NCBI GenBank assembly: GCA_905178155.1
Contig: CAJINV010000003.1
Location: forward strand, 7,460,601 to 7,524,600
Origin: Amoebophrya sp. A120
Taxonomy: Eukaryota; Protista; Dinoflagellata
Direction: 5' to 3'
Length of the DNA stretch: 64,000 bases
Position numbers and translations under genes: made by a program. Position 1 is the first letter of the stretch. Every line of letters starts with the position of its first letter. This document shows positions 6,201-61,300 of this stretch, one piece after another. The notes below the pieces were generated by a model. The model was given only the letters and a program-made list of their open reading frames with translations. It was not told the DNA's origin and did not search any database.

Positions 6201-9200
6201 GCTGGCACAATGCGCAATCAGTCCCACCTCATGTTGGGTTTTATTCTGCTCGGGCGAACTGGAAGACACTTTTATCGGGTGGAAAAGCGTACCCTGCTCC
6301 CATTGCAGATACGCAGGAGCGAAGGTGGCATTGTCTTTCAAGAAAAAAAGCCGTCAAAAAAAATTTCGGATTTTCTCTTCCTCAGCTGTCGAGTCCGAGG
6401 TATGTAGTGACACATGAACATGACTGTGTCGCAAGTCCAAAGGAAGGGAATGAAAAGGAACGGTAATATTATACGCAGAAGATTCACTACTTTGCAATTG
6501 CAGACACGACCTCACACCATCATCAAAATAAACAAATTAATAGGATATGGTGGATTCGCCCGCACGGTGTAGTTTTGTCTTGTTTACGCAAAAAACAAAT
6601 GGGGACGCTTTCACACACAATAACGTTGTAGTTGTGCCCACTCTTGTCCATCAAAGACACAGCCCCGGCGCCGCCACCGGCCTGCGGCATGTCCTCGTCG
6701 TCCATATTCGCGGAAGAACTCCTTTCTTTGTGATCGTTCTTGGAGGTGACATTGCTCGACTCGGGACCACCGCCCTCCTTCTGGTTAGCACCTGTATGGA
6801 AACAAAATCAAAACTGATGATTGACTTTCGTCAGCAACATGTAACGTTGCAATTTCCTTCGCGGCGGCCCGCTTAGATTTTTTTGCGCTGCCATGAAGTT
6901 GGGAAACATTTTTGAAGCCGTTCTTGGAAGGAACCACCGGAAAGACGTCGCGCATCCATATCCTGTTGAGCGACTTGTTCTTAGCGTGATCCCAACCCAA
7001 ATCTGCAGGCCAGGACATAGGAGAGCCCCGGTGAGGCCCGACCATCTGCGTCCGCGGTGCTTTCTTTGCACGCCGGACGCGGACCCAACAAACAGGACAA
7101 AATAAAACCCGCCACCGTTTTTCGCAACTTAGGAAAACGACCGCTGGGCTGGTTTCAATTGCTGTGGCCTGTCTTAATAAGCGTACAGAATTTCCGCGCA
7201 GCTCTCGCAAGATGTGGCTGGCCGCTCTACCTGATTTCGTCGCTGCGCGCCGGCGTTTGCACATACGGGCGCCGGCGTCCGTACGAAATCAGAGCGAGCC
7301 AGATAAGCGGCGCAGGCCTTTTCTGCGTTCCTTCTTGGAAGGACTGCAGCGCGTTACGAGCATCAGCATGCCGCGCAAGCGAATACTATCCCAGTGCGCA
7401 GGCTCGCGCAACTGCCCCCACTTGTACCAAATTCGCGCCACTGACTAGGTGCCGGGAATGGGTTAGCATGCGGCGTAATGGCTTAGCATACGGCGCACAA
7501 CTTCTTCGCAAATGCAACGGGACCGAATAACGCATGAACAAGAAGTAGGCCCCGAGAGCATGCGCAGAGAAGGCCGCGGTGGCTCCGCGAATTCGGCACT
7601 CTTGTTGCTGTTGGTCACACACATTCCACAACTCTATTAACTCTGCCAAAAACAAAAATATTAGCCAACTCCGGACCAGCGTCTTTCTGGTTCGTACCTG
7701 GCACTCCGTCGAGGACGCCGCTGGTGTTCGCCGCCACTCCACCACCGTGCTGATGATGGTTGGAATTGGGGCTTGGCTTGTTGCTGGGGGGCTCCACTCT
7801 ACGTCGTTTGCGGTCGTCCTTGATGCTCTTCATGCACGTGGTCAGGTTGCTCGTTTTCTTTAGCGCCTCGTCCGAATCTCGGACGACCGGTTCTTTAGCT
7901 CCGCTGGGCCCGGCTTGCTGGGCCCCGGCACCGCCAGCAGCGGTCGCGGTTGTTCCCGCTTGATTTTGCACCGTGCCTCCACCGTTGTGCGTCCCAGCCC
8001 CGGATCCATTCACCGCCGCGCGCACCACACCCTGTTGGTCGTTGCTGTAACTGCTTTCCATCGCGTCCCCGACCCGCTCCGAACTCTCCTCCGTATCTGG
8101 TGGTGGAGTAGTAAAAGCGACAACTTTCTTGTTTGGAATCGTACTTTGAAATGGGACCACATCTTGATACTTGACATTCAACTCTCCATGACACAGTGGG
8201 AACTTTTCACTGGTCAGATTTTGGTTATTGGTTGCGGTAGCGGTAGCGGTAGCGGTCGTGTGGGATTTTCTGTGTTGCAGCACTGTTATCTCAACTACGC
8301 GTTGTGACCCACAAAAGCCGTTATAATCGAGCTCCAAATTTTGTACTTCTAGTTGCGCAGATGGAGGTGATACTAATGCGTGTCTATTTGGCAAGGCTGC
8401 ACTTGCTCCTTCTGGTACTTGCTTTTCTATTTCTTCCCCGCTAACACCTTTGACATTAGCGCTACAGTCACACAATTCAGTGGCCATAGCTGCCAGTAAC
8501 TAGTACTACGGTGATGCACAAGGTAAAAGCTGATCCTGTGCAAATAAGCACAGCTTCTTACTAGCAACTGCACTCTTGATGTTCGACTAGATCTTCACTA
8601 GCGTAGTTCAAAAGCCTGACGTAGTTCGCGCTGGTGCAAAGTTTATTTGGTCACTCGTACTCGAAGCTTTAGCGTAGTGTCAGCGTCGCGCCTGCTAGAG
8701 GTGACATTCAACCGTATCTATAAATATATCGCGTTTTTGTTTGTCACGAGTACCACTATTATCTTTCATTTCATCTTCAAGGAGAAGGGACCGCGACCGC
8801 GTTTTTGAAGAAGTCAGCAAATCTATTGATATGTGATCTGCGTTGTCCGTATCTCTTTGGTCTCTGACTGCGAATGCTTATGTGGCGGTGGGGGCGCTAT
8901 GCTGCAAGCAGCGTCAAGTACAACGACCTATCAGGAGTTTTAATCTCCTGGTCTATGAACAACATACAAGTTTACGTAAGTATATTTATCCACCGTCGTG
9001 TCCGCTGCGATTTGTTGCAATAGTCATCCTACTACAGCACACACTAAAATTCAAATTTCCAAATTAACAAAGAAGCACAAAAAAATACTTTGCTTCTGCT
9101 TGCTACCCTGGCCTCCGGCAGCTTGGGCCACCGCCAGCGCTCCGGCTGCAGCCGCGGATTCGATCACCCCACTCGAGCGGCGCTGGTCGGCAGCAGACAC

Positions 9201-15764: not shown

Positions 15765-18700
15765 CTACGCTGTAGTTCTACTCCATTGGATACTGCGTTT
15801 TGGGGGTTCACTAGGTGGATGTTGGCAAAGAAACTGTTGCTGAGCAGCTCGCGCAGCTATCAAAGGGAAAAATCCCCCCTCCCCATATCGAAAAGGAACG
15901 CCTCAGAGAATTTGCGATGCTGATTTGTGACCACAAATATTGTCTGTCTTGCAAGAAAGCAACGGCAGAGGCTCCGCCCCATTATGCAGGAGGTTTGTAA
16001 TGCTGTTGGGCCTACAGCAGAGACGTTCATCATGCTAAGTGCTTAGGCCAAAACCTAAACCTCTCTACATTGGCATGATATGGGTCTGCAGTACTCTACT
16101 GCAAAACAAATCTGATTTGTGTACTGAAATCCAGCATCAGAAACTCCTTTTTGATATGGGGTGGGGGGATTTTTCCTTTTGATAGCAGCGTGCTCCGAGT
16201 TAGCCGGCGACGATCCCAGTCCGACACAAAAACCATCCGCAGTGTATCAAATGTAAAAGTGTCTGGGTCTGGAAGAGTGCATGTTTGTCATGCTTGTCTG
16301 GCATGACTCCCAAATCTGTCACGCACGTTACCCAAGAGCGCCACTTTTCTGTCATGCAGAAACGCAGTCTGTCATGCACAATAGGCAACACCTAGAAGCT
16401 CAGAAACTTGTCATGCATACCCGACTGCACCACATCAAAAACCTTTGCACCGTCGCCGCAAGCAGCTTCGGACGCAGGAGATCTAGGGTCAGAACCGCGA
16501 AAAAACATCGCGAGTATTTCTTCATCCCCGGGCACTTATGTTATCTTTACCTTACTTCTCGCTAACACTGTATGAGCTGCTGCAGACACACTGTGACAGG
16601 GAAAAACACAGGCGCCACAATAATCAACGCTCATTTATATCTAATATGCGGAAACTGGCAGGCACCTGTCGCACGAGGAAAATAGCAACAGGCGCGGGAA
16701 CAGAGTCCGAGGAGTTTTTGATCTACTCACATATAGACTGATGTTCGAAGACCAGCAACACTCGTACGGCGCGTCTCAGCTAGCTCCAACCGTGGGATGA
16801 GCACGCTATAATGACTATACAACGAAGGCGAGCTTCCAGGCCGTAAAACGATGCCGCGAGTGGAAACCTGCCAATCCATCCGCACTTCGCCTGCTTCGTG
16901 TCGCTCGCCTCGTCCGCGTAGACGCGATCTCAAGACTTCGCGGTCGGACTGTGCCGATTGGCAAAAGTGTGCCTATGATCTGCCGATTGGTATACGTTCG
17001 CTCTCGTTCCCGCTCTGCGTTGCTGCATGTCATGCTGAGCCAGCACTTGTGACCTCCTCATGATACGCCAGCCAGCATCACAAGTTTCCAGACCCAAACA
17101 TTTTTGCATTTCATACAGTGGTCGGTCTTGCAACAAGGTGCGAGCGAGTTGCGCTTTCCGCAGGAAAACACACTGCGTCAACTGCAACTCTTTCTCGACA
17201 TCCTCATCCGTAGCCTCCGCCTGATCGTCGTCTTCCGGCCCCAAACTAGGAGCACCTCCTGAAGAAAATCGGGATGCACGAGAACGACCCGAAACGCGAC
17301 CTCCACCTGCACGACCGGATAGTACAGCCTCAGGCCCAAGCGCCAACAAGAACGTAGCGCCGTTGGCGGCGGCGGTCCCGCGAAACAACCCGACGCGCGC
17401 TGCCCAAGTGTTGCGAGAGTTTTTGTTCGCGTTCGTGGCGACGTGCGAGAATTCCGCGCGCACGGACGACCATGGCGGCTCACCGGAAAAGGACAGCCCA
17501 AACGCCGCGTCCGAGTGGTGATCGAGACAGACCGCGTCGACGAGAGTTACGGGGCGAAGCGGCGATACTAGATACTGTGCCGCGCGCCGGCCGCGACCAC
17601 CAGCTGAAACCGCCAAAAGAAACTTCTCCAGATCCTCCGAAAATCGGCTCCAGTAAGCAAGTTGCCGCTTCTGCTCCGAAGATTCTCGCTTTGGGGAATT
17701 TATTGAAGATATTGTTGTACTAGATGTCTTTCTTGTTCCTACCCGCCTGCCACCCGCAGCACCAGAATTATGCGGTCTGCCCAGCCGCAACACCAAATGG
17801 AACACCCGCTCCCGGTCAGCACTCAAATAAAAATCCTGGATCAGATTCGTGCCCAACATGCTCCCTTCTCGCCCGGTGGACGTCCGCACCATCGTCCCAC
17901 CATGCCTCGCTTCCCGATTGTCGAGGAACTCTGCGATCCACTCGGCAAGCTGCTGCACATGCTGCACAACTTTTGCGTCGGAACTTCCAGCAGTCGCGGA
18001 AAGATCTACTCCCACTGTCTGTTGCGGAGACACGACCCCGCCAGGCTCAACATTCGCCGACGGTGGTACATCAACAGCGGTGCTGGCGGTCGTCGAAGAC
18101 ATCACGCTAAACATATCCAGTAGCGTCACCGCGAACGCTCGGTGGTGCTGGGCTTGTCCGAGCAACCGCGTCAACACGCGCCTCTCTCGCCGCTGGTGGG
18201 CGACGCGGGGTCGTAGCGATGTCGCCAACCGTTCCTGTCGGTCGGCCTCTTTCGCGCCAGCGGCAAGCTTTTTCTGCAGCGTTTGCTTTTCCACCAACAG
18301 CGTATTGCCCTCCTCCTCCGCGTCCGCCAAACGTTCCTCGCAGGCGGCAAGGAGGGCGCTCTTACGTGTCCATACCGAAGTAGACATCTTGGCGGGGGCG
18401 TCGGCATCTTCATGCTGTGCGTGTCCAGCTGAGGAAGTAGAGGCACCGAACTCGCCAGAAGATCCGGTCGTGGCAAACGGATTCAGATCAAAGTCAACAT
18501 GATATGCTTGCTCTTCGTCCCTGAACAGCTCGTCTTCCAAGGCTCCTCCCCGCTGGTCCTGTTCCGTTCGCTTGCGGGCGTGCTCCAAGCGCAGGGCGCG
18601 AAGCTCCTCCTCCTGACGGTAGAGATGCGAGGAGAAATCCTCCGCGAACGCCTGCATCACGCCCGAGCTTGCGCCCTTGAGAAAGATAAACAACGAAACA

Positions 18701-39600: not shown

Positions 39601-42600
39601 TGCGGAATGTTCATGGCCTCCATCTCCTCGAAAAGTTCCTCTGCTTTGCGGTCTTCCGACATCTTCAAACACAGGTCAATCAGAGCGCCGAAAAGCACCG
39701 CGTTCAGTGGCAAATTGTCCAGCTCGATTCGCTGCTTCACCTGGAGAGTCAAAATAAGCAAAGCCTTGTTTATTAGCAGCCTTCTTCGTTACGATTACGG
39801 TTTATTACATACGATAGTACACTACGTATTTTGATTCTCGACGCTCGAAATCATGATGATGATCATCATATCGGAGAATAAACACGTGCCGGATGGAATA
39901 TCAAAATTTCGTCACATCACCTCTAGCACCGTTAGGCTCTTTCCGTTCACGTTGACGTTGTGAAGAGCTCTTATATTTTCTCCCTCTACATAATCCGAAT
40001 TTCCGTATGCCGTGGCCGAGCGTGAGCGAATGATCACAGTATCTATTAATAAAGACAATTTATTTGAAGAAGAGCTCTACCCGGAAAGCAGACTCAAGAT
40101 CGCGCTGCTGGGAATAGCATTTGATGAGGAGGCCATATTCGAACTGCGAGAACTTCAGCAGGTCTCGGCTAAGCTCGAAAATTTGTTCCGCCAGGTCAGG
40201 GCGTATCCCAGAGACAAAAGCTGAACCTAGTACATCATCTCAATTCTTCCGTGCATCAAGATGAGTCTGTCATTGGCTGACAACATCACATCGTGTAAAA
40301 GAAGTTTTCTGGTGCGTATACATGAATATTCATTTTCGCATATAGTTACGCTAGCTTTTTTCCCTGGGATAGGGCGCCCGCAATGCGCACAAGCGTCGAG
40401 CAAAGCGCGGACGAGTACTCCGTCGATGCGGCTCCCATTCTGCTATCCTGTGTAAAAACGTCCCCACCCCAGAGTTGTTATGCTAAAGGAATTGCAGCAC
40501 ACTTTGCCCCCCCCTCTGCCCCAGGCCGCAGATGGCTTGACACGCAGGGGGGGTAGGTCAGGCGGACACCAAAGTGCCATCGCCATCATCTCCCGGCCGC
40601 TAACCCCAGAGTTGTTATGCAAATTTGCAATGACAGGAGCGCTTGTAATGCGCTTCCCCATGACAGGCATTTCTAATCGAGTTTTGGCATTTGTAATGCT
40701 GCAAACAGGATAAGCAGATGGATTTCAGATGCGGATGTCCTTGCTAACATGCACTACACTGCGGACTGCAACTTGTCACGCGTGGCTCCCAAAACTTCTG
40801 GATTTGTGTTGCTAAGTTCCCAACTTGACTATGGGGTGGGGACGTTTTTACATATGATATCTGCTGTAGCTTCCACACGTCGTTGAACGCCCGCTCCAGT
40901 ACCTCTTGCTTGACGCTTATCAAATGTAAAAATGTCTGGGTCTGGAAACTTGTGATGCTGGGTGGCGTCTCATGATGAGGCTACAAATGCTGGCTCAGCA
41001 TGACAAGTTTCTGAGCTCCTAGGTGTTGCCTATTCTGCATGACAAACTGCGCTTCTGCATCACAGAAAAACGGAGCTCTTGGGTAACGTGCATGACAGAT
41101 TTAAGAGTCATGCCAGACAAGCATGACAGACATGAATTCTTCCAGACCCAGACATTTTTGCATTTGATAACGCTGAAGTGTCCGCCATTGTTATAGCTGC
41201 GGTTGTGCTGCCCGTATCCGCCGCCTGCCCCCGCGTACGAATTGTGATTGTTCCATTTATTGTTGTGCTGGCCCTTCCCCCCTCCACCTCCATTATTTGC
41301 GTACCAGCCGCTCGCTCCCGCGGAAGAGGAAGATTGCCATTGCGAGGACTGTCCCCAGTTTGAAGAAGCCCCTCCGGAAGATGATGAGGCTGGAGTGTTG
41401 TATTGCTCCCACTGGTTCGTGTTGGCGTTCCAGACCTGCTGATTCTGGTGTTGAACAACACTGGAAGCATTGTTCGTCCCGGCAGTGCCGGGGTTGGTGC
41501 CGAACACCGAGGGTCCATAGTCTTTCATCTGCTTGATGGCCGAGATCAGGCTCGTGTAGGTCGCACAGTCGGGGTGTACGTTGAGAGACTGCATCTCGGA
41601 GACCAGCTGCCACGCTCGAGCGAACTGGTTCAGCTGCACGCAGGTGTGCACCAGCGTGTTGTAGGTGACCACGTTGGGCTGCACTGCGTTGCGTCGCATT
41701 TCGTCCAGAATGTTGAAGGCGCTGTCCGAGTCCCGCTCCATCGCGTATCAAACAAAAAAGTGCCTTAACGTTTTGAACAGTTTTCAAAGATTGCAGTCAT
41801 CGAGGAGATCATGGTGTCAAATTTTGCCTAAACATGATGCAAGATGTTGCTATGCAATACAAATTTTCTTTTTCGCGCTCTGTTTTCTAGTCGTGCATCA
41901 CTACATGCCAACTCCCGTTAAAACGCTTTTTTGGTTGATATCGCGTAGGCACGAATCACCGTGTTGTAGGTCACGCAGTCGGGCTCCAAACCGTCGTCCC
42001 GCATTTGGGTGTACAGGGAAATCGCCTTCCGCGGACGGAAATTCACGATGCAGGCATCTTATCCTGTGCGAAAACGTGGTGCCCACCCCGTAGCCAGCCT
42101 GGCATTGCTGGTAACTTTGATTTATACAACTTAAGGAGTAGTTATGGGTATGGCTGTAGAAGTTGCGCATGACAAGCCTAGATACGGAGCATTGCGGTTG
42201 CAGTGAAGTTTAATTATTGCAGCTGCGTCAATACTCGCCTTTCTGATATTGCTTCGTAAAATCCCAATATACTGGGCATTTGAATTTACACGTTTTTACA
42301 CAGGGTACGTCGATCAGAGAATTCATCATGAAGCTGTCACAGCTTTTCGCCTCCCGGTAGAGGAAAAAAACGCCAAAGGCAAAGTGGAGACACTGCAAGT
42401 GCCCCGCACTGCGGATCAGGATTGTGGACGACGCGGCAAGTGGAAGCTTCTCTTTGGTGTGTTTTGACTCCAACGGCCGCTTATGCATTGCAAAATCTTC
42501 ATCGGATCTTTAGTATTAGGTTGCATTTTTACGATGACGAAAGTTCTCAGGAAAAAGCAACTGCAACTTGGAACCGCTCTTGAAAGTAGATGATGAGGTT

Positions 42601-45732: not shown

Positions 45733-48507
45733 TATACCTGGGTGTGAGGGGGAAAAAAACGGGTTACTCCGGTTTTTGTCGAAATCGCGGGTTTTTTTGT
45801 CGATTAACCCGGTTTTTGTCGAAATTCGTGTCGAAGCCGCGAATTAACCGCGACTTCGGCCTGAATTTCGACGAAAACCCTCCTTCCCCATTTCGACAAA
45901 AAGCGAAATAACCCGGATTTCGACAAAAACCCTCCTTCCCCATTTCGACAAAAACCGAAATAACCTGGATTTCGACAAAAATCGGCTTTGTCGAAATCCT
46001 GGTTAAAGTTACTAAACCTCGGAATTTCGACAAAAACCGGAATGGCCTGGATTTCGACAAAAATCCTCCTTCCCCCAGTTCGACAAAAACCGAAATAACC
46101 TGGATTTCGACAAAAATCCTCCTTCCCCCAGTTCGACAAAAACCGAAATAGCCTGGATTTCAACAAAAATCGGTTTTGTCGAAATCCTGGTTAAAGTTAC
46201 TAAACCTCGGACTTCGACAAAACCTGAGTTGTCCCGGCGAACCCAAAACCCGACCCGGTTCTGGGTGCTGCCGCGCCCTATCTGCTCCGCTGGACCAGCA
46301 CCCCAAACGCTCCCGCGCGAACGTGCCCTCCTCGATTGTGTCGAAATTCCGGTTAAAGTTACTAAACCCCGGACTTCGACAAAGCCGAGGTTTAATAACC
46401 ACTTCGACAAAACCGAGAATATACCGGCTTTCGACCACCCAAAACCCGACCCTGGTTTTGGGGCAACCCCCGCCCTATCTGCCATGGTGGGGCAGCGCCA
46501 AAATTGCCCGTCTCGGACATACCCAGACGCAGCCCCACCGCGCCCTCACTGGCGCGTGCGAACCCGGGGTCGGATTCCGCCGCCGTAACCTGCACCCCGG
46601 GGCCGGACCGGGAAGCGGGTAGGTTACGACGAAGAAGGCGAGGGCGCCGCAGTTACGCGTCCACGCGGATACGCGTCCACGCGGATACGCGTCCACGCGG
46701 ATACGCGTCCACGCGGATACGCGTCCACGCGGATACGCGGATACGCGTCCACGCGGATACGCGTCCACGCGGCACCCAAAATCCGACCCGGGGTTCGCAC
46801 GCAGACCCGTCCTATCTACCCCGGCGGCCCTACGCCGGAAAGAGCCGACGCTGAGGCACCTTGTCCAATTGCCTGGCCTTGCCCAGTTCCTCGCGCCTTT
46901 CCCTCGCCCACCCCCGCCCTATTTGCCCCGCTCGACCTGCGGCAAATCGGGCCTGCGCAGACAGCGAGCACAGCTGCATTGTCGGCGAAATCAGTTTTGT
47001 CAAAGTCGGCAGCCAAGGTTAGAAAACCTCGGATTTTCGACAAAATCGAAAATAACCCGGATTTCGACAAAAATCGATTTTGTCGAAATCCTGGTTAAAG
47101 TTACTAAACCTCGGACTTCGACAGAACCTGAGGTCTTCGACAAAACCGGAGCTGTCCCGGGGAACCCAAGTCCAGACCCGGGCTTGGGGCTCAATCCCGC
47201 CCTATCTGCCCCGCTGGACCTGCACCCAAAACGGACCCGCGCGAACGCCCCGACCTCGATTTTGTCGAAATCCGGGTTAAAGTTACTAAACCCCGGATTT
47301 CGACAAAAGCCTCGGACTTCGACAAAACCTGAGGTGGCCCGGCGAACCCAAATCCAGACCCGGGCTTGGGGCTCAATCCCGCCCTATCTGCCCCGCTGGA
47401 CCTGCACCCAAAACGCTCCCGCGCGGACGTCCCGACCTCGATTTTGTCGAAATCCGGGTTAAAGTTACTAAGCCTCGGACTTCGACAAAAATTTCGACAT
47501 AACCCGGACTTCGACAAAACCTGAGCTGTCCCGACGAACCCAAAGCCAGACCCGGGCCCGGGGCTCAATCCCGCCCTATCTGCCCCGCTGGACCTGCACC
47601 CAAAACGCTCCCGCGCGAACGTCCCGACCTCAATTGTGTCGAAATCTGGGTTAAAGTTACTAAACCCCGGATTTCGACAAAGCCGAGGTTTAGTAACCAG
47701 GATTTCGACAAAACCGAGAACATCCCGTCTTTGACCACCCAAAACCCGATCCGGGTGTTGCAGCCACCCGCGCCCTATCTGCCCCGGTGGGGCAGCACCA
47801 AAAGTGCCCGCTCCGGACATACCCAGACGCAGCCCCGCCGCACCCGCACTGGCGCGGTCCCTGATAAAGAGGCAAAGGGGAGGGCCGGGTGACCCGGTCG
47901 GATTCCGGGGAGCGCGAACTCCGTCGATCCGCACCTTTTATTTCGGAAAGAAACTACCGCAGCGGTCGATTCTCGCCCGAGGCAAACTTTCTTTGCGAAA
48001 AAAAGACGAAGGAAACCAAGGGAGCCCCAGCACAAGGGAACGGGGTCACTCGCCCAGGGACAGCGGCCGCCACCTTCCCGCAAACGGAATTTTGTCGAAA
48101 TCCGGGTTATCCGCGATTTTGTCGAAATCCGGGTTGTTCTCGATTTTGTCGAAATCCGGGTTATTCTCGGTTTTGTCGAAATCCGTGTCGAAACCGGGAA
48201 TAACCCGGATTTCGACAAAATCGACCAACCCGGCGAAACCGCGGACCCGACCACCGCGGATCCCGCCGACGCCGGCGGTTAAAGTTAGAAAACCCCGGAC
48301 TTCGACAAAAATTTCGACAAAAAAATCGACGGACAGTGTCGCCCGTGGTTATTTAACCCGGATTTCGACAAAAATTTCGACAATAACCGCGGTTAATTCG
48401 CGGCTTCGACACGAATTTCGACAAAAACCGGGTTAATCGACAAAAAAACCCGCGATTTCGACAAAAACCGGATTAACCCGTTTTTTTCCCCCTCACACCC
48501 AGGTATA
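45733..48507. mobile_element. 2.8-kb non-autonomous foldback-like TIR element
   Basis: 120-bp TIRs at 45733-45852 and 48388-48507 (1 mismatch); the interior is built from TTCGACAAAA motifs and modules of about 185 bp; no transposase ORF. Confidence 0.9.
46655..46772. repeat. 16-bp minisatellite (acgcgtccacgcggat), about 7.5 copies
   Basis: Directly visible tandem array inside the 2.8-kb element. Confidence 0.95.
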
Positions 48508-48654: not shown

Positions 48655-51600
48655 TGACTTCGCCTGGGAATAATGCTGAGCCGTGGGCATTATCCACTGA
48701 TCCCATCCAGCATTCTGCACTGGAGCCGGGGCGTACCTGTAGTGATAAACATTTTTCTTTTTTGACAAAAAATCTTTATTCATTATGCGTATACCGAGGA
48801 TGCGATGTTGCAGTTGCGTCCCCATCAGAAACACACGAGGAGAAAAGCAGTACTTTTACAAATTTTTCGTTCTTGATGAAAAAGTTAAAGCGGTGGCGCT
48901 TTCTTTCTATATCATTCTTGCTCATCTCTAAATTCATTCAATACAATGGCGTGGACGGCGGCAGCGCGTGGTAAGGACTCGGCGGGTAGTACCACTGCGA
49001 AAAATCCGCGTACTGATGCATTTTATGAAATTCAAAACAATCAGCGAGCTCAATGGCAAGGGATGTCCATGAAAAGAGCACGGCTCGCACAAGTAAACTA
49101 TCTCAAATTCTCTAAAGTTAAGTGTAAAATCGTCAGAGTGCAGGTGCACTATAAGTCAACCTGCCGCTGTAAATGCAAAAGAGTGAACACCACATAACAC
49201 GATGTGCTGAGCATGACCATGGAGATGCACTATAAACACAGGTACACTTGTGTACGCAACAAGCACCGATGTCATTCCAATTTTGCAAGCAAACCGCGTT
49301 CGCAAAACGCACTACAGAGGACTGCACTGGGCTCATCTTCCGTTTGTTTCACTGTCGCATTCCGGGGACCACAAGCCTCCGGCGGTGGCATCCCCGCCCG
49401 GCACACCAGCCGTCGGCCCCGGTGTCGGGGATCCGTAGTACGCTGCCGCCATATTATAGTGCGCCACCGGAGAAAGCATCTGGTGTGCGGGTGAACAGTG
49501 AATTTGAGATATATCGGCCAGGTCCTGCTGCGAGATGGCCGCCGTGCTATGAACCACCCCCGCACTGTGCGGGTCCGCCACCACCGCGGACGACCGCGGC
49601 GCGACCACCGATTTCGAAGTGGTAGTGTCGTCGGCTCCCACCAGAGAGGACTGGTCGCCACCGCTTGGTCCTCGTTGTTCTTGGCACCGTTTCTGCTCCT
49701 CTTCTTCCCGATCGCGCACAAATTTTGGCGTGTTAGCGTGAAGCACCTCTGCAGGGGACTTCTCCAAAGTCATCAGCTCCTCGATCGAGGCCTCATTTTC
49801 GCTCAGCTCGACCTCCTCGTCTGCATCTTGCGCGGCTGTCGACGGCGATCCGGTATTTGTCGTCCCGCCTCCAGTATCCTGTGCAAAAGTATCGTACTCG
49901 TATTGCAATCATGCATTACAATTTTTTTTCTGAAGGCAAATCCGCATTACAGATTTTATTTCTCATGCTGAGGAAATTTGTAATGCATCTATACGAGTAC
50001 GATACTTTTGCAATGCATATCCAGGTCGCGCAGTGGCGTCTTCGAGATCTAACATCTCCTTCGATGTTGATGAAGTTGAACAAGCCCCTGCTCGTTTGAT
50101 ATTTTCATCTACGCTCTTCGTGCTACCACCAGCGGTCGTGGACGAGGAATTAACAGCCCCGTAAATTTTTGTTGAACAACTACCATCAGCAAGATGCGTA
50201 TCGCTACCTACATTGCCGTTGCCGCTTGCAGTCAGACTGGTCGACGAGCCGCCGTCAGCAGTCAAACTGGAATTATCGGTGCCGATCGCGCATGGCTTCT
50301 TCGTCACCCCCTGGTCTTCCTGCACGGCGTGTTCCACCAACGGAGATTCCACCAGGTGCGGCAAATCATCAAGCTCTTCGTCGAGGGGGCTTTGTTCGCT
50401 TTTTATTACCCCAGGACCGACGTGCCCTGCCGCACTAGCATTGGTTGTAGCCGCTAGGACAACTCCTTGCGTTCCTGGCTCACTTGTTGATGTGTGGGTT
50501 TTGTTCTCTTCAGCTGCAACTGTTACGATTTTGTCGGAAGCTAATGTAGTTGCACCATTTATCCCCAGAGGAGTGCCTTCGGTGAGTGCCTTGTTCGAGG
50601 ACAAGCTGCCACCCCCGTCCGAAGAGGTCTGCCCCGTGTAGTCCTGGTCCGGAGCTAGGCGAGCGAGCTCATCGGCCTGCTTCTGGAGCATGGCCTTCAG
50701 TTGGAGCTTCTTCTTCTTTTTCTTGCGCCCGTTCTCCTTCTCCTTGTTGTTGAGACAACACGCAGGAAGATTCGACGACGTGTGGTCACGTGCACCGCCA
50801 TTGCCCGCGTCTCCTGTGGCATCAGCAACGGCCTGATCTTGCTCCACCGACGTCGTGGTGGGCTCATTATTTGGTGATATGTTTTTGTCCATCAAGGCGC
50901 GTTCCGTACTCAGGACAGCACCCGGAAGTGCGGGATCCGGAGTGGTCCCTACCGTCACCTCAACCGTGGAAGGACACCCCGAGCCCGCCACTTTTTTTAC
51001 CGATGCATGTCCTCCCTGCTCAGAAACAACTGCTGCACCGTCTACAGCGGTATGATCCTCCCCTTCGTGATGCCGCGGCGCGTCTTCAGCGACTTCCTCT
51101 TCTTCGATTGGATGCTCCACCTCCATACCTGCAATCATATTGTCACGACTGAACACCTGAAGACCCCACGTTCTTTTTTTATGCTCTTGCAGTTCATCCG
51201 TGCAGCGGCAACCGCCGGCACGATAGATGTAGTCGTAGTAGACAAGGCTGCTCGAAATAATTTTACAGATGAACAAGTAGTACGTAGTATTTTTACAAAT
51301 ACTAACCCGGCTGGAAAGAATCCTTCTGGTGCATGACGACAGCACACAAGCACTACAAACCGGCGTCGAAAAATCGACGAAAGATCAAGATGACAAAGCA
51401 GAAAGTCACCAACTAGATTTTTACATAGTTGCACTACATTGGTTCGTTTCATGCATATGCTTATTTGTGTATTTACCTTCTTCGTCTTCCACTTCGAGAA
51501 TGGTGCTCGGAACACCCTTTTTCAAAATTACTCCCGTGCTTCCATAGCCCTTCTTCATGCGGCGCCGCAAGCGTTGGCCCATCCGATCGTCCGCAACCTC

Positions 51601-52179: not shown

Positions 52180-53623
52180 ATAATCACCCTTCTCTTGGTC
52201 CTAAAGCAGAACACCTATGCTGGGACACTCTTTACTTGATACCGCGGCGGCTGTATATCCAACGACAAACGGATATAAGTTGGTGCTGCGAGTGGGAGTG
52301 CCTACTCCAGGGCTGCAGCACGGCTTTTTACCCGTTCGTGTTATCGCAAAATATTCACGCTGAACAGAGGAACCTGCTGCTCTCCGCGCGCTGGCCCGTG
52401 CCGTCAATCATCAAGAGGATCCCATACAACCCGATCGGAACTGTTATATTCTATATCTATTTACCTTGCAGCTGCAAGTAGAACGAACGAAAGACAAGAC
52501 TTTCGATCATGTAATTGCAGAAATAGAATCGAGCGAAGATGTTCATGTTTCAGCTCCAGTTGCGTGCCGGAATCCGGCATGTAGCACCTTTTCAATAAAA
52601 TCTACCGCAGCGCTGCTTCTATTTTCTCAGCTTTACAACTACCAAAACCACATACATAGGAGTCCTGCAAACGAAACTACGACTGTACCGTGACTGACCC
52701 TTACTACGCGCACGACATGTAGCTCGTTTTCTTGTATGCAATCAATAACTGACGAAAGGATATCGTCGAGAAAAACCTTTTTTGGCAAACAAATCGAAAT
52801 GAAACAAAAATAACAAACTATGAAAGGTGGTCAAAAACAAAACATACCATTATATCAGTAGCAATATACAACGAAACTTCGAGAAAAATAAAATAGTACC
52901 GAGAAAATCAGCTGGGCAGGCTGATTGTTTTTTTCGCAGACACAAGTACATCTATCTAGCCCAACAAAGTGCGCTTGGTTTGTTTCCCTGAAGGTGGTTG
53001 TTGGTAAGCAGTCAAACACGACGAACCACACCTTCAAAGTCTCATAAAGAGCTCCCGCGATTGCATGGTGATCATGATGATGATCAGATCCGGAGCAGAT
53101 CGATCAAACTACAACAAACAAGCAGAGCAGAAAAACAGAATGAATCATATGTCAGATCCAAATCGTGATCGTCTTTTGATCTCCCGCTGTGAATGTATGA
53201 TGCGACTGGTCTCGAGCGATGCCATACCGTCTTATGCGCGGCCGTATGTGCTTTTGCAAATGGAAAAGACTATGAATGAAGTGCTTGCTTGTATACAAAC
53301 ATCGCAGAGAAGCTATGTGGCTACGCTATGTTCTGCTTCTGCCAAAATTGCAAGAAAATTTACATTTGATCTGTTTTTCCGTTTCGCAATGAAGATGATG
53401 TTTACAAAGGTCAATGCTCAGGCTTTCTCGTTCTCTGTGCGCAACAATGCAACGACTGAAAGATGAAACAGCGCGCGTCGGGGAAGAAAACATTCGCGAG
53501 GTCTGTATCGTGCGAGGTCTTTCTCGAACACATCGCATTCACAACAATTTCAGACTCAGAGTGAACGGAACGCTCGCGCAGCTGCACGACAAGCTATTCG
53601 ATTCCATTCACCCGATCGCGATC

Positions 53624-54677
53624 GAGAGCCTGGAGCCGGGAGGCCGCCTGGCTTTTGAACCGGGCTCAGGGTTCAGGGCTCAGAGGGCGCCGGCGCGCAT
53701 GCAGATTGTTGCTTGGGCCGGCCGCCCGCAGCGGGGTAGTAGCGAGCGCAGCGGCCCCATTTGGCCGGCAGGCCAGAATGCTTGCCGGTGGCCCAGCTCG
53801 GTCCGTGTTTCGCGGCGCTTTTTTTTCCCAGAATGCTCTGCGCCCCGCGAGGAATCCGAGGGCCAGCTTTCGGCGTGCTATTCCTGATCCAAAAGCGGCG
53901 GGCCCACCACCCTTGACGCCCCGCGCAGCAACCTGGCTAGCGGACAAAGAAACGCCAACGATATTGGGCGGGGGGGGGTTGGCCCACCGCCTGGGCGCCG
54001 TGCCTGCCATTACCTGCCGGCCCCCTGGCTGGGGGGGGCCGTATTTTGCCCCGCGGGCTCACGCGCTTGGCGGTAGCCGCATTCGCCTGCGCGCCTGCTC
54101 AAGCTGTTGTGGTTGGCCTGCAGGCTATGTCCGTGCGCGCGCGCGCCGGCGGGGGGGCCGGGTCACTGACTTAACTTCACCTCGGACGCGGCGGGCCCAC
54201 GCCGGCAAGCCCTCGCGCCCCTTGGGCCAGCTTGGCGCGCCCGCATGCCTGCGGCAAGCCGGGCAGCTACATGGAGTGGGCCGGCCGGCTGCTCACAATG
54301 GGCGGCCAGTTGCTTGGCTGGGCAGGGTAGGTCGGTCCGCCGCGCGGGGCGGTGGCGTGAGTGTGTTGGGCCCGAATATTGGCGGGCCGCGCAACGGAGA
54401 TCCCCCGCGCTATGTATTTGGGCCAGGTCCCCGCGCCTGGTGGAGGTCGCTGGCCGCTGTTGCACGGGGCCCCCACCTGGCCGGCCGCCTCTCAGCCCCC
54501 AACCTGCATGGGTAGGCGGCGGGGCGCGCGCGGGCCGTTCGGGCACATGGGCCGAGTACTCGCGCCCCACATGTAGTGGGCCAGGAGGGCGGCGCCGGCC
54601 TTGGGGGCATGTGGCCACGAGGGGGGAGGAGGGTAGCGCACTTACGAGTTGAAAACTTACGTTTTGAGGGGGCCATA
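53624..54677. mobile_element. 1054-bp very GC-rich insert flanked by a perfect 42-bp direct repeat
   Basis: ctgcacgacaagctattcgattccattcacccgatcgcgatc at 53582-53623 and 54678-54719; composition shifts abruptly at both edges. Confidence 0.8.
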
Positions 54678-55387
54678 CTGCACGACAAGCTATTCGATTC
54701 CATTCACCCGATCGCGATCTGGGTAGCAGGAGTCGAAAATCAGGATGAAATATTGGGTAGGCTGTAAAAGAACTTTTGAAAGTGAATTACACACAATCTC
54801 GTCATGGGCAAGGCCACGGCCCGACATTCGACGGCAGAAAATATAGAGGTTTTCATCACTGCAGAGCATCGAGTATTCTTCCCATCAATGCATCAATTTG
54901 ATTGAACTAACGGGCGTTTCTGTTTGTATCTATCCCTCAAGGTCCATTCTCCTGCTATTGTAAGTCTAAGTCAGTGTGCGTATAGGACGCGGGTACTGGT
55001 CACTTCTATTAAGCTGCCACCATGGCGCACACCTCACGTTGTTCTCCTTGTTGTGCCTTGGTGTGCTAGAGAATTGCGTCGGTCCGTGTCGTGTCAACCT
55101 CAAGCGCATGAGCAATCTGACATCCAAACCCGATCTGTCTGGTTCAAAAAAAAGTAACAGGGACTAGAACCGTCCGTTTCTGCGCTACAGCGGTACAAAA
55201 AACCATTTGCAACGAACACGAACAAACTGAAGTGACAGTGGCGTGAGTCCATGTAACGAATATTGATGATATTTCTCCTGTACTAAATTAATAAAAGTGA
55301 GTTCATAGGTAATTACTTACTTCTGCATCGGTCACAAGAACAGCAGGAAGAACACCTTCCAGAGAAGTGAATGTGGAACGATCTGGA

Positions 55388-58300
55388 TTACTTCTTCGGT
55401 CCCAGCAGCGCCTTGAATTTTGATGCGCCGGTTCCACCAAAGGGCGACGCACCGCCACTCGCGCTCGGGGATCCTGCCATGATCGCCAAAGTGTTGCGCG
55501 CCTGCGTCATGTTGTTTTCTCGCACGCCGGGAACGGTGGTTACATGCTGCCCCTTGTTCCACGGAGTCTCCCGGTAGTGCCCCGCTGAGAGCGGTGTGCC
55601 TGCGCATGGATTTTTTACAAATTTCCATGAACGCGCTCTAGTGCTACACTACGATCATCAAGAGCTGACACTATCAAGCGATAGCAAAAAAAAAACGCAA
55701 ACTTGAGTACCTTGGCAAGGGGCGACACCCCGCTCCTTCTCGAGCTTCGCCAAAGACATGTGTGTGTCGTCGATAGTTTCCTCCAGGTCCTTGCAGCTCT
55801 TGACTACACTGTCCAGGATGATTGCCAGCTGCTTCTGCAGCCCACTGCAGTCATGGTCAACGTGTTGCAGCATTTTGCCCGTCTCGATCGCCAGGCTCGT
55901 CAACTCCTGCTTTCGCCGCTCTTCGTACCCGGTCTCTGCCAGCACAAAACGGTGGCACCGCAGCATCAAATGCCGAGCGAACCGGGGCTCTACGCCAAGT
56001 GCCTGAAAGTAATGGAACGGACCCACACTATGTCTATATTATCATATCGAGCGCTGTGTAGAAGTGCGTGAAGACACTTTCAGCCACGATTTCAGACTCA
56101 TCTTTCACGCGAAGTTCATCCGAAGTTAGTTGATGCATACATCTGGATCTGCAAGCTTGCGCTCGCATTTCAATTTGAATTTCAAGAACCAAGTAGTGTA
56201 GTAGACCTAGTCCTAGACACAATTGATATTTGATTTATAAAAAATATGTCCAGCATTAACAAGTGCAGTACCTCGAGGTCTTCAAAGGTGATTGGCTCGC
56301 GGATGTAGGCCATTTGTTCCTTTTGTATTTGCATTGTGCCCTTTGCCAGCAGCTTCTTTTTGCTCCCAGAACCGGACTTGGAGGACTGTCGACTGATCTG
56401 CTGCTCCCCGTCCTCTGCATCGTCACCCTCCTCGCCACCGCCGCCCTCAGCACCGGGCGGCTGAGAAGCGGGGTCTTTACTCGCGGGACTTTGATTCGCA
56501 CCAGATGCGGGTGACGTTTTGCCGTCTGGCCTCGCATCGTTTTCGTCTGCGACCGGCGGCTCATCGACGTCCCCGCCGCTTTGTTTCGTTTTTTCGCCGT
56601 CTGGGATCATCATGTCGTCCGGATTTATTACGGCGTCTTCCCCGGTCCGTTCCGCCTTCTCGATCTCCTCGTCTTCGCCCTCGGCCATCCGATGCGCCCC
56701 TTCCTGCAGCAGGTAGCGCCGAAGCTTCCGCGAAGATCGACCACCAAGGGCAGCCCTAATCTTGTTTTCCCTGTGCCGCTCCTGTGTAGTACTCGATACT
56801 GACGACGACGTTCTTGCGAGTCGTGCACGTAGCGTTGAAAACGCCTCCCTTTCCCGGTTTTCGCGCATCGAAAAATTCGTCATTTCGATGCCGCCGCTTG
56901 AATCATGCTCGTCATCTGTTCGTGGAGATGATGATGAAGCGCTCCCTCCTCTCTGTTGATTGTGGAACGTGGTGCGCGACGTAGTGAAGCACTCGGGCCC
57001 CGTGGCAGAGGGGAGCGGTGAACGGGAACCCGAAGAGGAAGAACCGTCCGACCACCATGGCGGCGGCTCCATAGCGTGCGTTCCCTCTGCAGGCACGGAC
57101 ACGGCGGGCTCAGCGTTCTTGCTTGCGCTGCGCGGAACAACGACCCCGGAACCCCCCGTGTTACTCAGTGGTTCCTTGGACCCGCCCTTGGACGACGGCG
57201 CCTCCCCACTGCTGGACCGCTTCTTGGCCATCTGCTCAGCCTCAAGCATCGAAAGCCGATTTCCACCGTCCTTACTTTCGTGCCGTAAACTCTCCTCGAA
57301 GGCCGCGCGGTCCGCATTGCGCTTCTCTGTCCGCTGCTCGAGAATAGTCGGCCGCCCGTACACTTCCCCTTGCGGCGACTCCTCCACCATAGCTTCGTAC
57401 ACCTCTTCGTACGACATCTGCTCGTCGAGAAACAGGTACCCGAATTTCTTCGGGTGGAAAAATCGAAACACCTTGTACTCTGGCATGGGATCGATTACCT
57501 CCTTCTTAAGATACTGCTTCCGCTGCAGATACCAATCAATGGCCCAACTTTTTTCGAAGAAGACGTCCGCAATCTGGGACCCCAAACCCTGCGTTTCGCC
57601 CACTGTGTCGCGAAAACTGGCGGTTTTTGGATGTAGTTTTAGTTTAGTTTTTGACTTTCCCAACATCTGGATACTAGTGCATCACAGTTGCGGGGACATT
57701 CATTCGTCCTTGTTTTTATTTTTGAAATAAATTCATTTTTGGCTGCACGTGCAAGTGCAACGAGCTTGATGTCGGCATACTAAGTGAAGATTGGCGAGCC
57801 TACTTAGCTCAAGCGAGCCAGAACATAAAAAAAAAGCCCTGGTGCACTCCTAGTCCAACTTTCATTCTGAAATTGCAGTACCTGTAGTAGTGATCGAATA
57901 CGATGGCCACGAGCAGGTTCATCAGGATGTACCAATTAATCACCATAAAGGACCAGAACCACAGGTAGGCAGTGATTGGCGACACCTCCATCAGCGCATC
58001 CATATCGATATTCCCCAACAGAGCCATCATACTGGTATTGATGGCACCCATGATACTCGACCAATCCTGATATTTTCAATTATATATTTTCAACTACATC
58101 AGTGCTTCTCTACTAGTGGTCAGTCGCCGTAACGTTCAAAAAGTGGCTAGTGGTCCCAAATACATCAACTGGTTCATCGTCATTATGATATATGTATGAT
58201 TCCTCATCTTACTTCCTCATCGAGTGGAAATTAAGCATGATACGTCGCTGCTGGTTCCGAACATGAGATTGCCGCCGATCGCAAAGTTGACGAAGACGAC

Positions 58301-61300
58301 GGCAAAAACAATTAGAAAGTGGCCCATGTCCAGGAGAGACTTCAACAACGTGGACGAGATTTGCGACAGCCTGGGCTGCCCCTGGAAGTTCTTGAAGAAG
58401 CGAAGCATCAGCACCAGGGTATACCAGTAGAGAAACATGAACTGCACGTCCTGGGAGTCGGACAGGGAACTCAGGTCGTCCACGATGCGCGTCCACTTCG
58501 ATTGGTACAACGCGGATCCTTATCAAATGCAACCATTTCCGAGTCTCCTGGAAGTCTACTGCAGAGGACCGTAGAGCACACTTACTTTATTTTGTTTGTT
58601 TAAAAAGCGAGAATTATATGAAACGTTTGTTTCGGCATTTCTTCGTAAAAAAAAATTACTCGGGGTGCGGGTCCCCGCATTGGTGCAATGCCTGTGCTGC
58701 GTGACCACGGGAAAGCACACGACATCACCTAGGATGTCGCAATTCTTCCTTGTACTTGATGTTCCGGTAGTAAGTTGAATTATGTTTCATAGCCGATGGT
58801 ACAAATTTAAATTTTTGTTTGCTACAGAACGAGCTGCGCCGCGTATTGATTCTGCATCACTTACTATGCCAAGTCTGTGTCCTCTATCAACGACTTTCCA
58901 GAGCCCGACATCATGTTTGCAGTGGGTATAGTCGCAGCCGTTTCCGGGGTGGGCCCCAGGTCCGCGATCAAGTCCCCGACGGACTGCGTGCGAAGCACAA
59001 TGTTGAACCAAAGGAAGGAGATGACGAACCCCGCTATAATGCTGAGCCAGTCGACCAAATTCCAGAAGTCCGACAGGTAGAAGGACAGCAGCCCGCTCCG
59101 CTTTGCGTTGATCACCTCGAAACCCTCCTGGTAGAGCAGCTGGGAGATCATGGCGAGGAAGATCAGGTCCGGCACGATGTACCAGAAAGTCGGGTACATG
59201 TTTGCGGAGATGGCGGCCACCTTCATGCGCTTCTCCATGTAGCCACCGTTTTCGAAGGTGAAGGTCAGCGTGAGCAGGGAGTACAGCCGCACCTCCGCGT
59301 TGAAAAACGCGCCCTGGAACTGCACCTCTTCCGTAGCCCCGTCCAGCCACTGGAAGGGCCGCAGCGTGTACTCAATGTCCTCCAGCGGCCCCGCCGTGGA
59401 GGCCAGTGGCCTACCCACGTCGAAAAGGCAGTCAAAGTAGCCGTCTGTCTGGTCCTTCACCGGCTCAAAGCACCGGTGGCTCACGCCCTTCCAATTGCTG
59501 GTCTCCTCGTCACCCGTGCGGCAGTCGGCATTGTAAAACTCCTGCAGCTCCGGGTTCACGTCGCAGTCCGACGTCGTTTTCAGCCGCTTCTGCCGCAATC
59601 GTATGCCGCCAATCTGGAATCAATTTCAAATTTTCTTCATTATTTTCAGTTTAAACAAAAAAAATTCTCACGCCCGTGGTCCTTACGCATTGATTTGAGG
59701 CGGTTCATGTTGTCGGGCGGCAGCACAAGGTAGGTGCGTTGGAGTTTACTTTTAAAGTTAAACCAAATTGATGTTGAAAAGTAATAAAGAGCTACGAGCT
59801 GGTTCGTGACGTAGAGGCGTCCCGGTCTCTTCGCGATTGCAACAGGGGCTACTATCACAGGTCCTGTGCTAGGTGCAGTCGTTTCTGCATTGGTCTCGTT
59901 ACCGGCTAGACTTGGATCTGTCGTAGTCGTCGTAGTCGTCGTGGTCGTCCTGTGTTGTGTGTGTATCATTTACTTAAGCTGGATTTTTTGGATAACAAAT
60001 ACGGATATCTTTTAAATGTTGTCGCGCTTGCTATTGATATAGATTGCTGTGCTAAACACAGCAACTCGGGCAAAAAAGCGAACTTTTCCCATCCGTTCCC
60101 AATATCCTCCAACTATCCTGAAGATACCCTCCCAGTATCCTACTAGGAAATCTTTTCCCCAGGTAGCCAGAATTGCTGCGCCAAACACAGCAACTTGGGC
60201 AAACAAACGAACTTTTCCCGCCCATTCCCAATATCCTCCAACTATCCTGAAGATACCCTTCCAGTATCCTAGTAGGAAATCTTTTCCCCAGGTAGCCAGA
60301 ATAGCTATGCTAAACGCAATAATTCGGAAAAAAAAACTTCCCATCCGCTTCCAGTATCCTCCTCCTAGCCTGCAAATTCTCTGCCAATATCCTACTGGAA
60401 ACCTTCCCTCTGGGTAGCCAGAATACCTATGCTAAACACAACCGCTCGGGAGAAAAGCCAAGCATTCTTCCGGTGCTGCTCCCAAACTGGGGCGCGCTGC
60501 GGATGCGTTTTTAATGTGCTTCCGGCTGAGTTTCCTTGCAGCTGGAAACGCACTGCGGCACGACAGCAGAAGCAGTGTTTTTCTCAGTTGCTGCCGAAAA
60601 CGACGGACCGCGCGCCGTCGCGGCAGGTGAACTCTGTGAAAAATGCTCCTTCTAGCGCAAGTTTGCGATGTCACACCGAGCGGGCGAAGCTATTCGAATC
60701 TCGTCAATTTCTATTTGATTGATCAGATTAAAACTGCGATTTTTTGTTCATCGAATTCGAACCTACACCTTTCTATTATTCTTTCCTACGGGGCTCGCAA
60801 AAGATTGAAAAAGTTTCTATCATCGACATCAATACTCGGTGACGGTGACTTGCTGGAGGGAAAGCTGAATCGCCGCAAAGTCGTTCTCATTCCAGACGAA
60901 GGGAAAGGCACCGTGCTGGATCCAGAACCACAGGCTGTCGATGTTGTCCACGGAGTCGTAGGGCACGGGGTCCTGAAACGCCATGTTGTCGGTTTTCTGC
61001 TTGTACATTTGTGAGCGAAGCTGGTCGCCGGAGTACTCCGGAAAGAACTGACCGTCGGTGACGGATTTCACGTTTAGGTAATTGCGGTTCAACGCGTTTA
61101 CCTGGCACGCCTCCGGCTGGGTGAAATCGGCCCGGGGCACGCAGGCACAGTGGCAGGTGGTTGGACACGCCGAGCCACTCGTGTCGCCGGCCGCGGCCGC
61201 GGGCGTGTTTCCCAGTTCCGGGTAGGCGACCACGCTGACCAGCGCGCCGCCTACGGCGGACTGCACCTGGTAGTTGCTCTCGATCGAGGCGTGCATGCCC

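What the first reader, a model, noticed from the sequence alone, without database searches (positions are those of the whole stretch)
53582..54719. GC-rich 1.05-kb insert with a perfect 42-bp target duplication: a candidate long-TSD element class
Seen: no TIR, poly(A) tail or recognisable ORF; very high GC; a perfect 42-bp direct repeat. The same architecture recurs with 80 bp (5228-6210), 18 bp (40484-40602), 8 bp (16417-17027) and a decayed ~33 bp (6792-7697). Established: eukaryotic DDE TSDs are usually 2-10 bp, while long variable duplications are known from IS1634/IS1549-type insertion sequences and some non-LTR elements. Inference: either an undescribed mobile family or staggered-break repair that captures foreign DNA.
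Basis: partly seen in the sequence, partly recalled or inferred. Interest (0 to 1): 0.75.

Follow-up and report, generated by a model that had tools for sequence, protein, structure and literature searches.

The report
One-ended transposon piece, 42-base target duplication
In the marine parasite Amoebophrya, a 1,054-base, left-truncated piece of a repeated element sits between two copies of a 42-base landing site that a relative carries once and empty; the long duplication likely arose when only one end was joined by a transposon enzyme and host repair finished the other.

Summary
Observation confirmed: a perfect 42-bp repeat flanks a 1,054-bp, 70% GC insert with no protein or RNA family match. 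An orthologous locus from a relative (L001, flanks 95-98% identical) holds the 42-mer once and no insert, so the repeat is a true target duplication, not an LTR. The insert is not foreign: DNA contigs of the same organism show other copies. Two continue leftwards past this copy's left end, with a 6-of-7 microhomology at the junction; one stops at the same right end (TAT.., like the local introner tips) in another flank. So one end is precise, one is broken. Best reading (0.5): one-ended insertion of a TAT-ended DNA transposon completed by host repair; target-primed retrotransposition (0.2) gives the same picture. The four other sites are real duplications (8, 18, about 33-45, 80 bp) but of mutually unrelated inserts, so no single family; one is an annotated GT-AG intron using both copies. 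The scan reported this class before on another piece of this genome (e1-10627074); the empty allele and end asymmetry are added here. New variant of a known kind; interest 0.42.

The parts
53582..53623 (.). Left copy of the 42-bp target duplication (last 2 bases could come from target or element, so 40-42 bp)
   Evidence: single copy in L001 807-848
53624..54677 (.). 1,054-bp non-coding, 70% GC piece of a longer multicopy element, truncated at its left
   Evidence: no family or homologue
53617..53623 (+). Imperfect microhomology (6 of 7, last 2 exact) between the end of the target copy and the longer element copies at the truncation point
   Evidence: loose ends before 53617 and 53625 in X2, read by eye; chance of 6 of 7 = 0.002 for a window chosen afterwards
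54631..54677 (-). Terminal 47 bp shared with contigs that have another, AT-rich interior; precise element end at 54677, reading TAT..AAAACGT inwards
   Evidence: loose ends before 54631 (2 contigs) and behind 54677 (1 contig) in X1 and X2; pattern test
54678..54719 (.). Right copy of the 42-bp target duplication
53144..53581 (.). Left flank, orthologous to L001 379-806
   Evidence: 95.4% over 480 columns incl. the 42-mer
54720..55764 (.). Right flank, orthologous to L001 849-1895
   Evidence: 97.7% over 1091 columns incl. the 42-mer
6792..7697 (-). Related older event: 906-bp GT-AG intron of a Tousled-like kinase gene whose donor and acceptor both come from the CAG/GT in a decayed 33-45-bp duplication; its insert starts TATGG at 6795, directly at the duplication
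   Evidence: exon map of annotated protein P0001
4934..6290 (.). Related event: 983-bp insert (5228-6210) with 80-bp duplication that includes the tip of an introner; left copy later split by a 209-bp introner; no TAT tip on the insert
40466..40620 (.). Related event: 119-bp insert with 18-bp duplication inside an introner; empty paralogue at 22328-22606
16409..17035 (.). Related event: 611-bp insert with 8-bp repeat inside an introner; empty paralogue at 40918-41169; the 8-mer is a recurring motif of that introner, so it may be microhomology

Best explanation
The 42-mer is host target DNA duplicated on insertion, and the insert is the right-hand 1,054 bp of a longer resident repeat; it likely arrived by one-ended transposition, in which a transposase would join only the TAT tip to the target and host repair would finish the other side. 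Shown: empty site, multicopy repeat, constant right end, broken left end with microhomology. Inferred: the tip is a terminal inverted repeat of the TAT..ATA elements that normally make 5-bp duplications; its 3' end was joined at 54678; the free target 3' end at 53581 was extended by strand displacement over 40-42 bases and then annealed to the element at the microhomology, so that repair, not enzyme geometry, set the length. That would explain the spread of 8, 18, about 33-45, 42 and 80 bp among unrelated inserts in this window.
For: Empty orthologous site with one exact 42-mer; the same record carries a normal TAT..ATA element with a 5-bp duplication that the window lacks, as internal control. 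Variant contigs along the insert in X1 and X2 (one sample, so not independent). Two contigs continue left of the junction into shared GC-rich sequence. One contig leaves at exactly 54677 into another flank, and two share only the last 47 bp. Summed contig depth in X2 is 102-293 over the interior and 320-459 over the last 150 bp, against 41-43 in the flanks (not a copy number). A relaxed introner-tip pattern hits 21 places on both strands: 16 tips of the elements it was drawn from, 4 other tip-like sites, and exactly 54677. A second long duplication also abuts TATGG (6795). No tail, tRNA head or ribozyme. Precedent: a provirus with one damaged end and a 273-bp instead of 4-bp duplication (PMC2857682); single-ended piggyBac events in cells (PMC3952818).
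Against: No full-length copy was seen, so a partner inverted repeat and 5-bp duplications at other copies are untested. The ungapped tip profile scores this end weakly (-2.9 bits; top 0.7% of all positions but only top 17% of TAT starts; 24 of 26 real tips score 3.4-25.7 left out), and the relaxed pattern was widened after seeing this end. The internal CATGA-type words of the window's introners are not enriched in the insert (8 observed, 8.0 expected). 3 of 5 long-duplication inserts have no TAT tip. Truncation with microhomology, one constant end, a shared 47-bp tail and variable duplications are also the normal marks of target-primed retrotransposition. The constant right end rests on one foreign-flank contig.
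Confidence: 0.5

Rival explanations
1. 5'-truncated retro-insertion: a non-LTR reverse transcriptase copied an RNA ending at ..CCATA into a nick, and a second nick 42 bp away gave the duplication.
For: Same geometry: precise right end, truncated left end with microhomology, 47-bp tail shared with another family. Long duplications are reported for Dualen (over 50 bp) and R9 (126 bp) LINEs (PMC9977147). A120 has non-LTR elements (PMC7789003 section 5). Extra left breakpoints at 54254 (X1 only) and 53854 (X2 only).
Against: No poly(A) or tandem tail; no RT frame, tRNA or Rfam match in the retained part; the end falls on a TAT tip-like site; interior depth is roughly level with a step near the end rather than a ramp; the two extra breakpoints did not reproduce between runs.
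Confidence: 0.2
2. Enzyme-free break repair: a staggered break or nick was patched by copying from, or ligating, a piece of a resident repeat.
For: Unrelated inserts, variable lengths, 3 of 5 without a TAT tip; microhomology at the left junction.
Against: The right junction lies exactly where another copy also ends, with no added or shared bases against the empty site; blind copying has no reason to stop there. May still explain the three tip-less inserts.
Confidence: 0.12
3. Copy-and-paste element moved by a single-strand (HUH) enzyme, Replitron- or Helitron-like, with one exact and one fuzzy end.
For: Replitron-1 makes variable duplications with one imprecise end and inserts after RG (PMC10288648); here the TAT tip follows AG on the minus strand.
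Against: No terminal hairpin beyond chance (z -1.5, -0.9, -1.0); RG at only 1 of 3 known TATGG junctions; no Rep frame; the loose end is shorter than the donor, not extended by donor flank; the paper saw no duplications in other Replitron families.
Confidence: 0.1
4. A dedicated transposase that makes long, variable duplications for intact elements, a eukaryotic counterpart of IS1549/IS1634.
For: At least four duplications of 18 bp or more in 64 kb; IS1549/IS1634 give 8-514 bp (PMC2266710).
Against: This copy is truncated; inserts are unrelated; 13 intact TAT..ATA elements in the window and one in L001 have 5-bp duplications.
Confidence: 0.06
5. The 42-mer is part of the element (LTR-like) or an assembly artefact.
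For: No listed contig spans the whole insert.
Against: L001 has the 42-mer once inside continuous host sequence; another copy ends without it; short-read contigs stop 30 bases into each copy (53611, 54690), as expected if the 42-mer has two real neighbours on each side.
Confidence: 0.02

Closest known systems
Amoebophrya A120 introner elements / TAT..ATA non-autonomous TIR elements (PMC7789003: passages, section 5, supplement search; PMC12130899: passages, Dataset rows for 32 of 58 A120 families)
   Same: Same genome label; non-coding repeat; right end reads like their tips; multicopy.
   Different: One tip only; 42 bp instead of 3-5 bp (2-6 bp or none in the 32 family rows seen); 70% GC; internal introner words not enriched.
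Uncoordinated / single-ended integration by DDE enzymes (XMRV provirus with 273-bp duplication, PMC2857682 passages; single-ended piggyBac, PMC3952818 passages)
   Same: One correct end, one damaged end, duplication far longer than normal.
   Different: Those are rare laboratory events; here several such scars are fixed in a natural genome, about 1 kb or more of the far end may be missing, and the enzyme is unidentified.
Non-LTR retrotransposons with long duplications (Dualen-4b, R9; PMC9977147 passages)
   Same: Constant one end, truncated other end, long variable duplication.
   Different: No tail, no RT frame, end resembles a TIR tip.
IS1549 / IS1634 (PMC2266710 passages)
   Same: Long, variable direct repeats of target DNA.
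   Different: Bacterial, autonomous, two intact ends; this piece has no transposase and one broken end.
Replitron-1 / Replitron-N1 (PMC10288648 passages and part 1 of 2 of section 9)
   Same: About 1 kb non-autonomous size, one exact end, variable duplication.
   Different: No short direct terminal repeats seen, no significant hairpin, RG rule met at 1 of 3 junctions.

Membership tests
Amoebophrya introner element (intact) | 8-20-nt inverted repeats at both ends | tested here: not met
   No end-to-end inverted repeat; left end scores -31.7 on the tip profile
Amoebophrya introner element (intact) | 3-5-nt direct repeat | tested here: not met
   42 bp, proven by the empty site
Amoebophrya introner element (intact) | Repeated in the genome | tested here: met
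   Variant contigs and loose ends in X1, X2
Amoebophrya introner element (intact) | Removed from RNA as an intron | tested here: inconclusive
   No joint across it in the runs laid; see Tried and rejected
One-ended TIR transposon insertion | One junction exactly at an element tip | tested here: met
   Another copy ends at 54677 in a different flank; no extra bases against L001
One-ended TIR transposon insertion | That tip is a terminal inverted repeat of a DNA transposon | tested here: inconclusive
   Relaxed pattern hits it, ungapped profile weak; internal words not enriched
One-ended TIR transposon insertion | Other junction internal to the element, with microhomology | tested here: met
   Loose ends before 53617 and 53625
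One-ended TIR transposon insertion | Full-length copies have two TIRs and the normal short duplication | not testable with these tools
   No genome held; contigs break at variant sites
Non-LTR retrotransposon / SINE | 3' poly(A) or tandem-repeat tail | tested here: not met
   Ends ..GGGGGCCATA; no tandem array there
Non-LTR retrotransposon / SINE | 5' truncation with microhomology and variable duplication | tested here: met
Non-LTR retrotransposon / SINE | RT frame, or tRNA/ribozyme-derived head | tested here: inconclusive
   None in the retained part, but the left part is missing
IS1549/IS1634-like long-duplication transposon | Intact element with both ends and a DDE transposase | tested here: not met
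   Truncated; no transposase match
IS1549/IS1634-like long-duplication transposon | Long variable duplications at many copies of one family | not testable with these tools
   Only this copy's two flanks are known
Replitron | Short direct terminal repeats, terminal hairpin, Rep gene | tested here: inconclusive
   No hairpin signal, no Rep match; true left end not held
LTR-like element | The direct repeat belongs to the element | tested here: not met

The most novel reading that the evidence does not exclude
Amoebophrya has a routine pathway, host- or element-encoded, that completes half-done insertions with long variable duplications (8-80 bp), and this is a real route of intron gain: a long duplication readily contains AG/GT and turns the insert into a clean GT-AG intron, as at 6792-7697. 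It would give a natural eukaryotic model for the unexplained long duplications of IS1549/IS1634.
Probability: 0.2. Interest if true: 0.7.

Novelty: new variant of a known kind. Interest (0 to 1): 0.42.

Why it matters
Published work on this genome describes 3-5-bp repeats around its introners; I found no paper on long duplications in it (searches; open-access library only; supplement files 13-14 of PMC12130899 and 26 of its 58 A120 family rows not seen; bioRxiv supplements closed). Four duplications of 18 bp or more in 64 kb suggest that failed insertions leave frequent, datable scars. Such scars mark where a transposase joins its end and how far repair synthesis runs, and one of them has become an ordinary intron, which bears on how new GT-AG introns arise. 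The chemistry itself (one-ended joining plus repair, or retro-insertion) is known, which caps the interest.

Tried and rejected
No whole genome is held and L001's assembly is not searchable, so other copies could not be read in full. Idea that the insert interrupts a gene: the empty site reads as a 170-aa frame (P0002) with no Pfam match, a single-member cluster, on the strand opposite to the neighbouring genes and frameshifted by 10 bp in the window; treated as a probable chance frame. Foreign origin: no match in phages, plasmids, viral contigs or metagenome contigs. Insert frames: no homologue. Terminal hairpin: not above shuffles. Partner inverted repeat within the window: best 15 of 20. 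Internal introner words: not enriched. Reverse-transcribed excised intron: rejected, since the insert ends at ATA with no extra donor bases. In one search the right end of the 8-bp-site insert was set 8 bases short (17019 for 17027); the correct end reads TGCAG.. inwards and is no TAT tip either. Supplement searches for the end motif found nothing. Paper searches returned nothing and two papers were not held, so aberrant HIV/RSV integration and hairpin footprints are recalled, not read. Sequence look-ups in earlier findings were blank.

Full report
Observation. The 42-nt repeat is exact at 53582-53623 and 54678-54719 and encloses 1,054 bp of 70.4% GC. Chance expectation is 1e-17. There is no end-to-end inverted repeat, tail, tandem array, RNA family, tRNA, protein family above cut-off or homologue of the two longest frames, and no similar DNA in phages, plasmids, viral or metagenome contigs.

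Host. A kinase frame of the window is 100% identical to P0001, which its source labels Amoebophrya sp. A120. The window holds 13 TAT..ATA elements with 5-bp duplications matching at 4 or 5 of 5 bases, the published introner elements of this organism (PMC7789003, passages).

The repeat is target DNA. A frame in the left flank found one unnamed protein, P0002, which reads across the site with a single copy of the 14 residues encoded by the 42-mer. Its DNA, L001, matches the left flank at 95.4% and the right flank at 97.7% and holds the 42-mer once, exactly, with no insert. No paralogue of the left flank was laid at 80% in run X2, so L001 is likely the orthologous locus of a relative. L001 also carries its own TAT..ATA element with a 5-bp duplication at a site that is empty in the window: the ordinary elements make 5 bp. 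Short-read contigs of X1 and X2 stop at 53611 and restart at 54690, 30 bases into each copy, which is what a real repeat with two different neighbours on each side gives; no listed contig spans the whole insert.

The insert is a broken piece of a resident repeat. In X1 and X2 (one sample, possibly the window's own, so not independent of each other) several variant contigs lie along the insert. Summed contig depth in X2 is 102-293 over the interior and 320-459 over the last 150 bp, against 41-43 in the flanks; the tool warns that this is no copy number, but about three interior copies would fit. At the left junction two different contigs go on leftwards into the same GC-rich sequence (loose ends before 53617 and 53625; not among the 7 of 8 rows shown for X1 at the stricter setting). 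So other copies are at least 68-87 bp longer, and their sequence matches the end of the 42-mer at 6 of 7 bases (read by eye; chance 0.002 for a window chosen afterwards). At the right junction one contig leaves at exactly 54677 into a foreign flank, and two contigs share only the last 47 bp with another interior; both results appear in both runs. Loose ends at 54254 and 54359 (X1) and 53854 (X2) did not reproduce and are not used.

The precise end. Read inwards it begins TAT and has an AAAACGT tract, like the introner tips. A relaxed pattern hits 21 places on both strands: 16 tips of the elements it was drawn from, 4 other tip-like sites and 54677. Against this: the pattern was widened after seeing this end, the ungapped profile ranks it only in the top 17% of TAT starts, and the internal words typical of the window's introners are not enriched (8 against 8.0 expected). 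The tip assignment is likely, not shown.

Other sites. An exact-repeat survey (16 nt or more, 60-6000 bp apart, outside the 45.7-48.5 kb array) gives 6 rows: this site, the 80-bp site in two pieces, the 18-bp site and two rows of a 129-bp tandem array. The 18-bp and 8-bp sites have empty paralogues in the window; the decayed repeat beats 500 of 500 shuffles. The five inserts are unrelated, and 2 of 5 have TATGG directly at the duplication. By the exon map of P0001, 6792-7697 is a GT-AG intron that takes its donor from one copy of the duplication and its acceptor from the other; the 80-bp insert lies in skipped sequence and the protein carries the residue of the left copy. This rests on the annotation, not on reads laid here.

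Mechanism. Shown: target duplication, resident repeat, one constant end, one truncated end with microhomology, variable lengths among unrelated inserts. Inferred: a transposase joined one tip to the target; the free target end was extended 40-42 bases by strand displacement and annealed inside the element. Precedents read in passages: a provirus with one damaged end and a 273-bp instead of 4-bp duplication (PMC2857682) and single-ended piggyBac transposition (PMC3952818). The wording 'host repair finishes a half-done insertion' comes from earlier finding e1-10627074, which moved me from a retro-first reading. Target-primed reverse transcription predicts the same junctions, and long duplications are known for Dualen and R9 (PMC9977147); only the full-length copies can separate the two. 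Replitron-like copying (PMC10288648), enzyme-free repair and an IS1549/IS1634-like enzyme (PMC2266710) fit less well.

Comparison and novelty. It works like an uncoordinated DDE insertion; it is not an intact introner (no paired ends, 42 instead of 3-5 bp). In the 32 of 58 A120 family rows seen, the column that I read as duplication length is 2-6 in 22 rows and empty in 10. Polarella introner classes in the passages read have 3-8 bp (10.1101/2020.10.14.339549); a review gives 3-5 nt for Amoebophrya (PMC11282704, passages). Searches listed no paper on long duplications in Amoebophrya. The scan has noted the class on another piece of this genome. Verdict: real, new variant of a known kind, interest 0.42; boldest reading (a routine long-duplication pathway that makes GT-AG introns) probability 0.2, interest 0.7.

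Noticed in passing
window 53624-54582 and 54860 (differences listed): Copies of the insert, and L001, differ by many 4-base insertions. Of 10 tested, 6 read as a 3-base repeat split by the complement of the base before it, 2 fit that or plain slippage, 2 do not; random 4-mers give it 11% of the time (three cases lean on neighbouring substitutions). This looks like excision footprints of 5-bp-duplication elements through a flanking hairpin (hAT/CACTA-type chemistry, recalled).
   Followed up: partly
L001 1-357 against window 27574-27218; L001 379 against window 53144: L001 joins the reverse of window 27218-27574 (96.6%) to window 53144 onwards: a possible 26-kb inversion or other rearrangement between the two lineages, or a chimeric contig, with a breakpoint 440 bp left of the insert.
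   Followed up: no
L001 1892-2040 / window 55756-55760: TAT..ATA element with 5-bp duplication present in L001 and absent in the window; related (79%) to window 49875-50019. A presence/absence polymorphism inside a coding stretch.
   Followed up: partly
window 45733-48507: 2,775-bp foldback-like element with 120-bp inverted ends (99%), TAT start, nested 16-, 27-, 53- and 182-192-bp tandem arrays and no 5-bp duplication (2 of 5 match).
   Followed up: no
window 6792-7697: GT-AG intron of a Tousled-like kinase gene built from a decayed long duplication; candidate intron gain.
   Followed up: partly
window 40484: The 119-bp insert starts with TAAAGG, the terminal motif of Replitron-1, but lacks it at the other end and does not follow RG; probably chance.
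   Followed up: no
window 51125-51474, 55598-55710, 56001-56271: Three GT-AG joints on the minus strand in run X3 (RNA by guess) in the neighbouring genes.
   Followed up: no
window 60043-60440: About three copies of a 129-bp tandem unit between exons of a polycystin-like channel gene.
   Followed up: no
window 54328-54541: No contig of X2 matches the window exactly here (nearest has 3 other letters), which may be polishing errors in a repeat or a mosaic copy.
   Followed up: no
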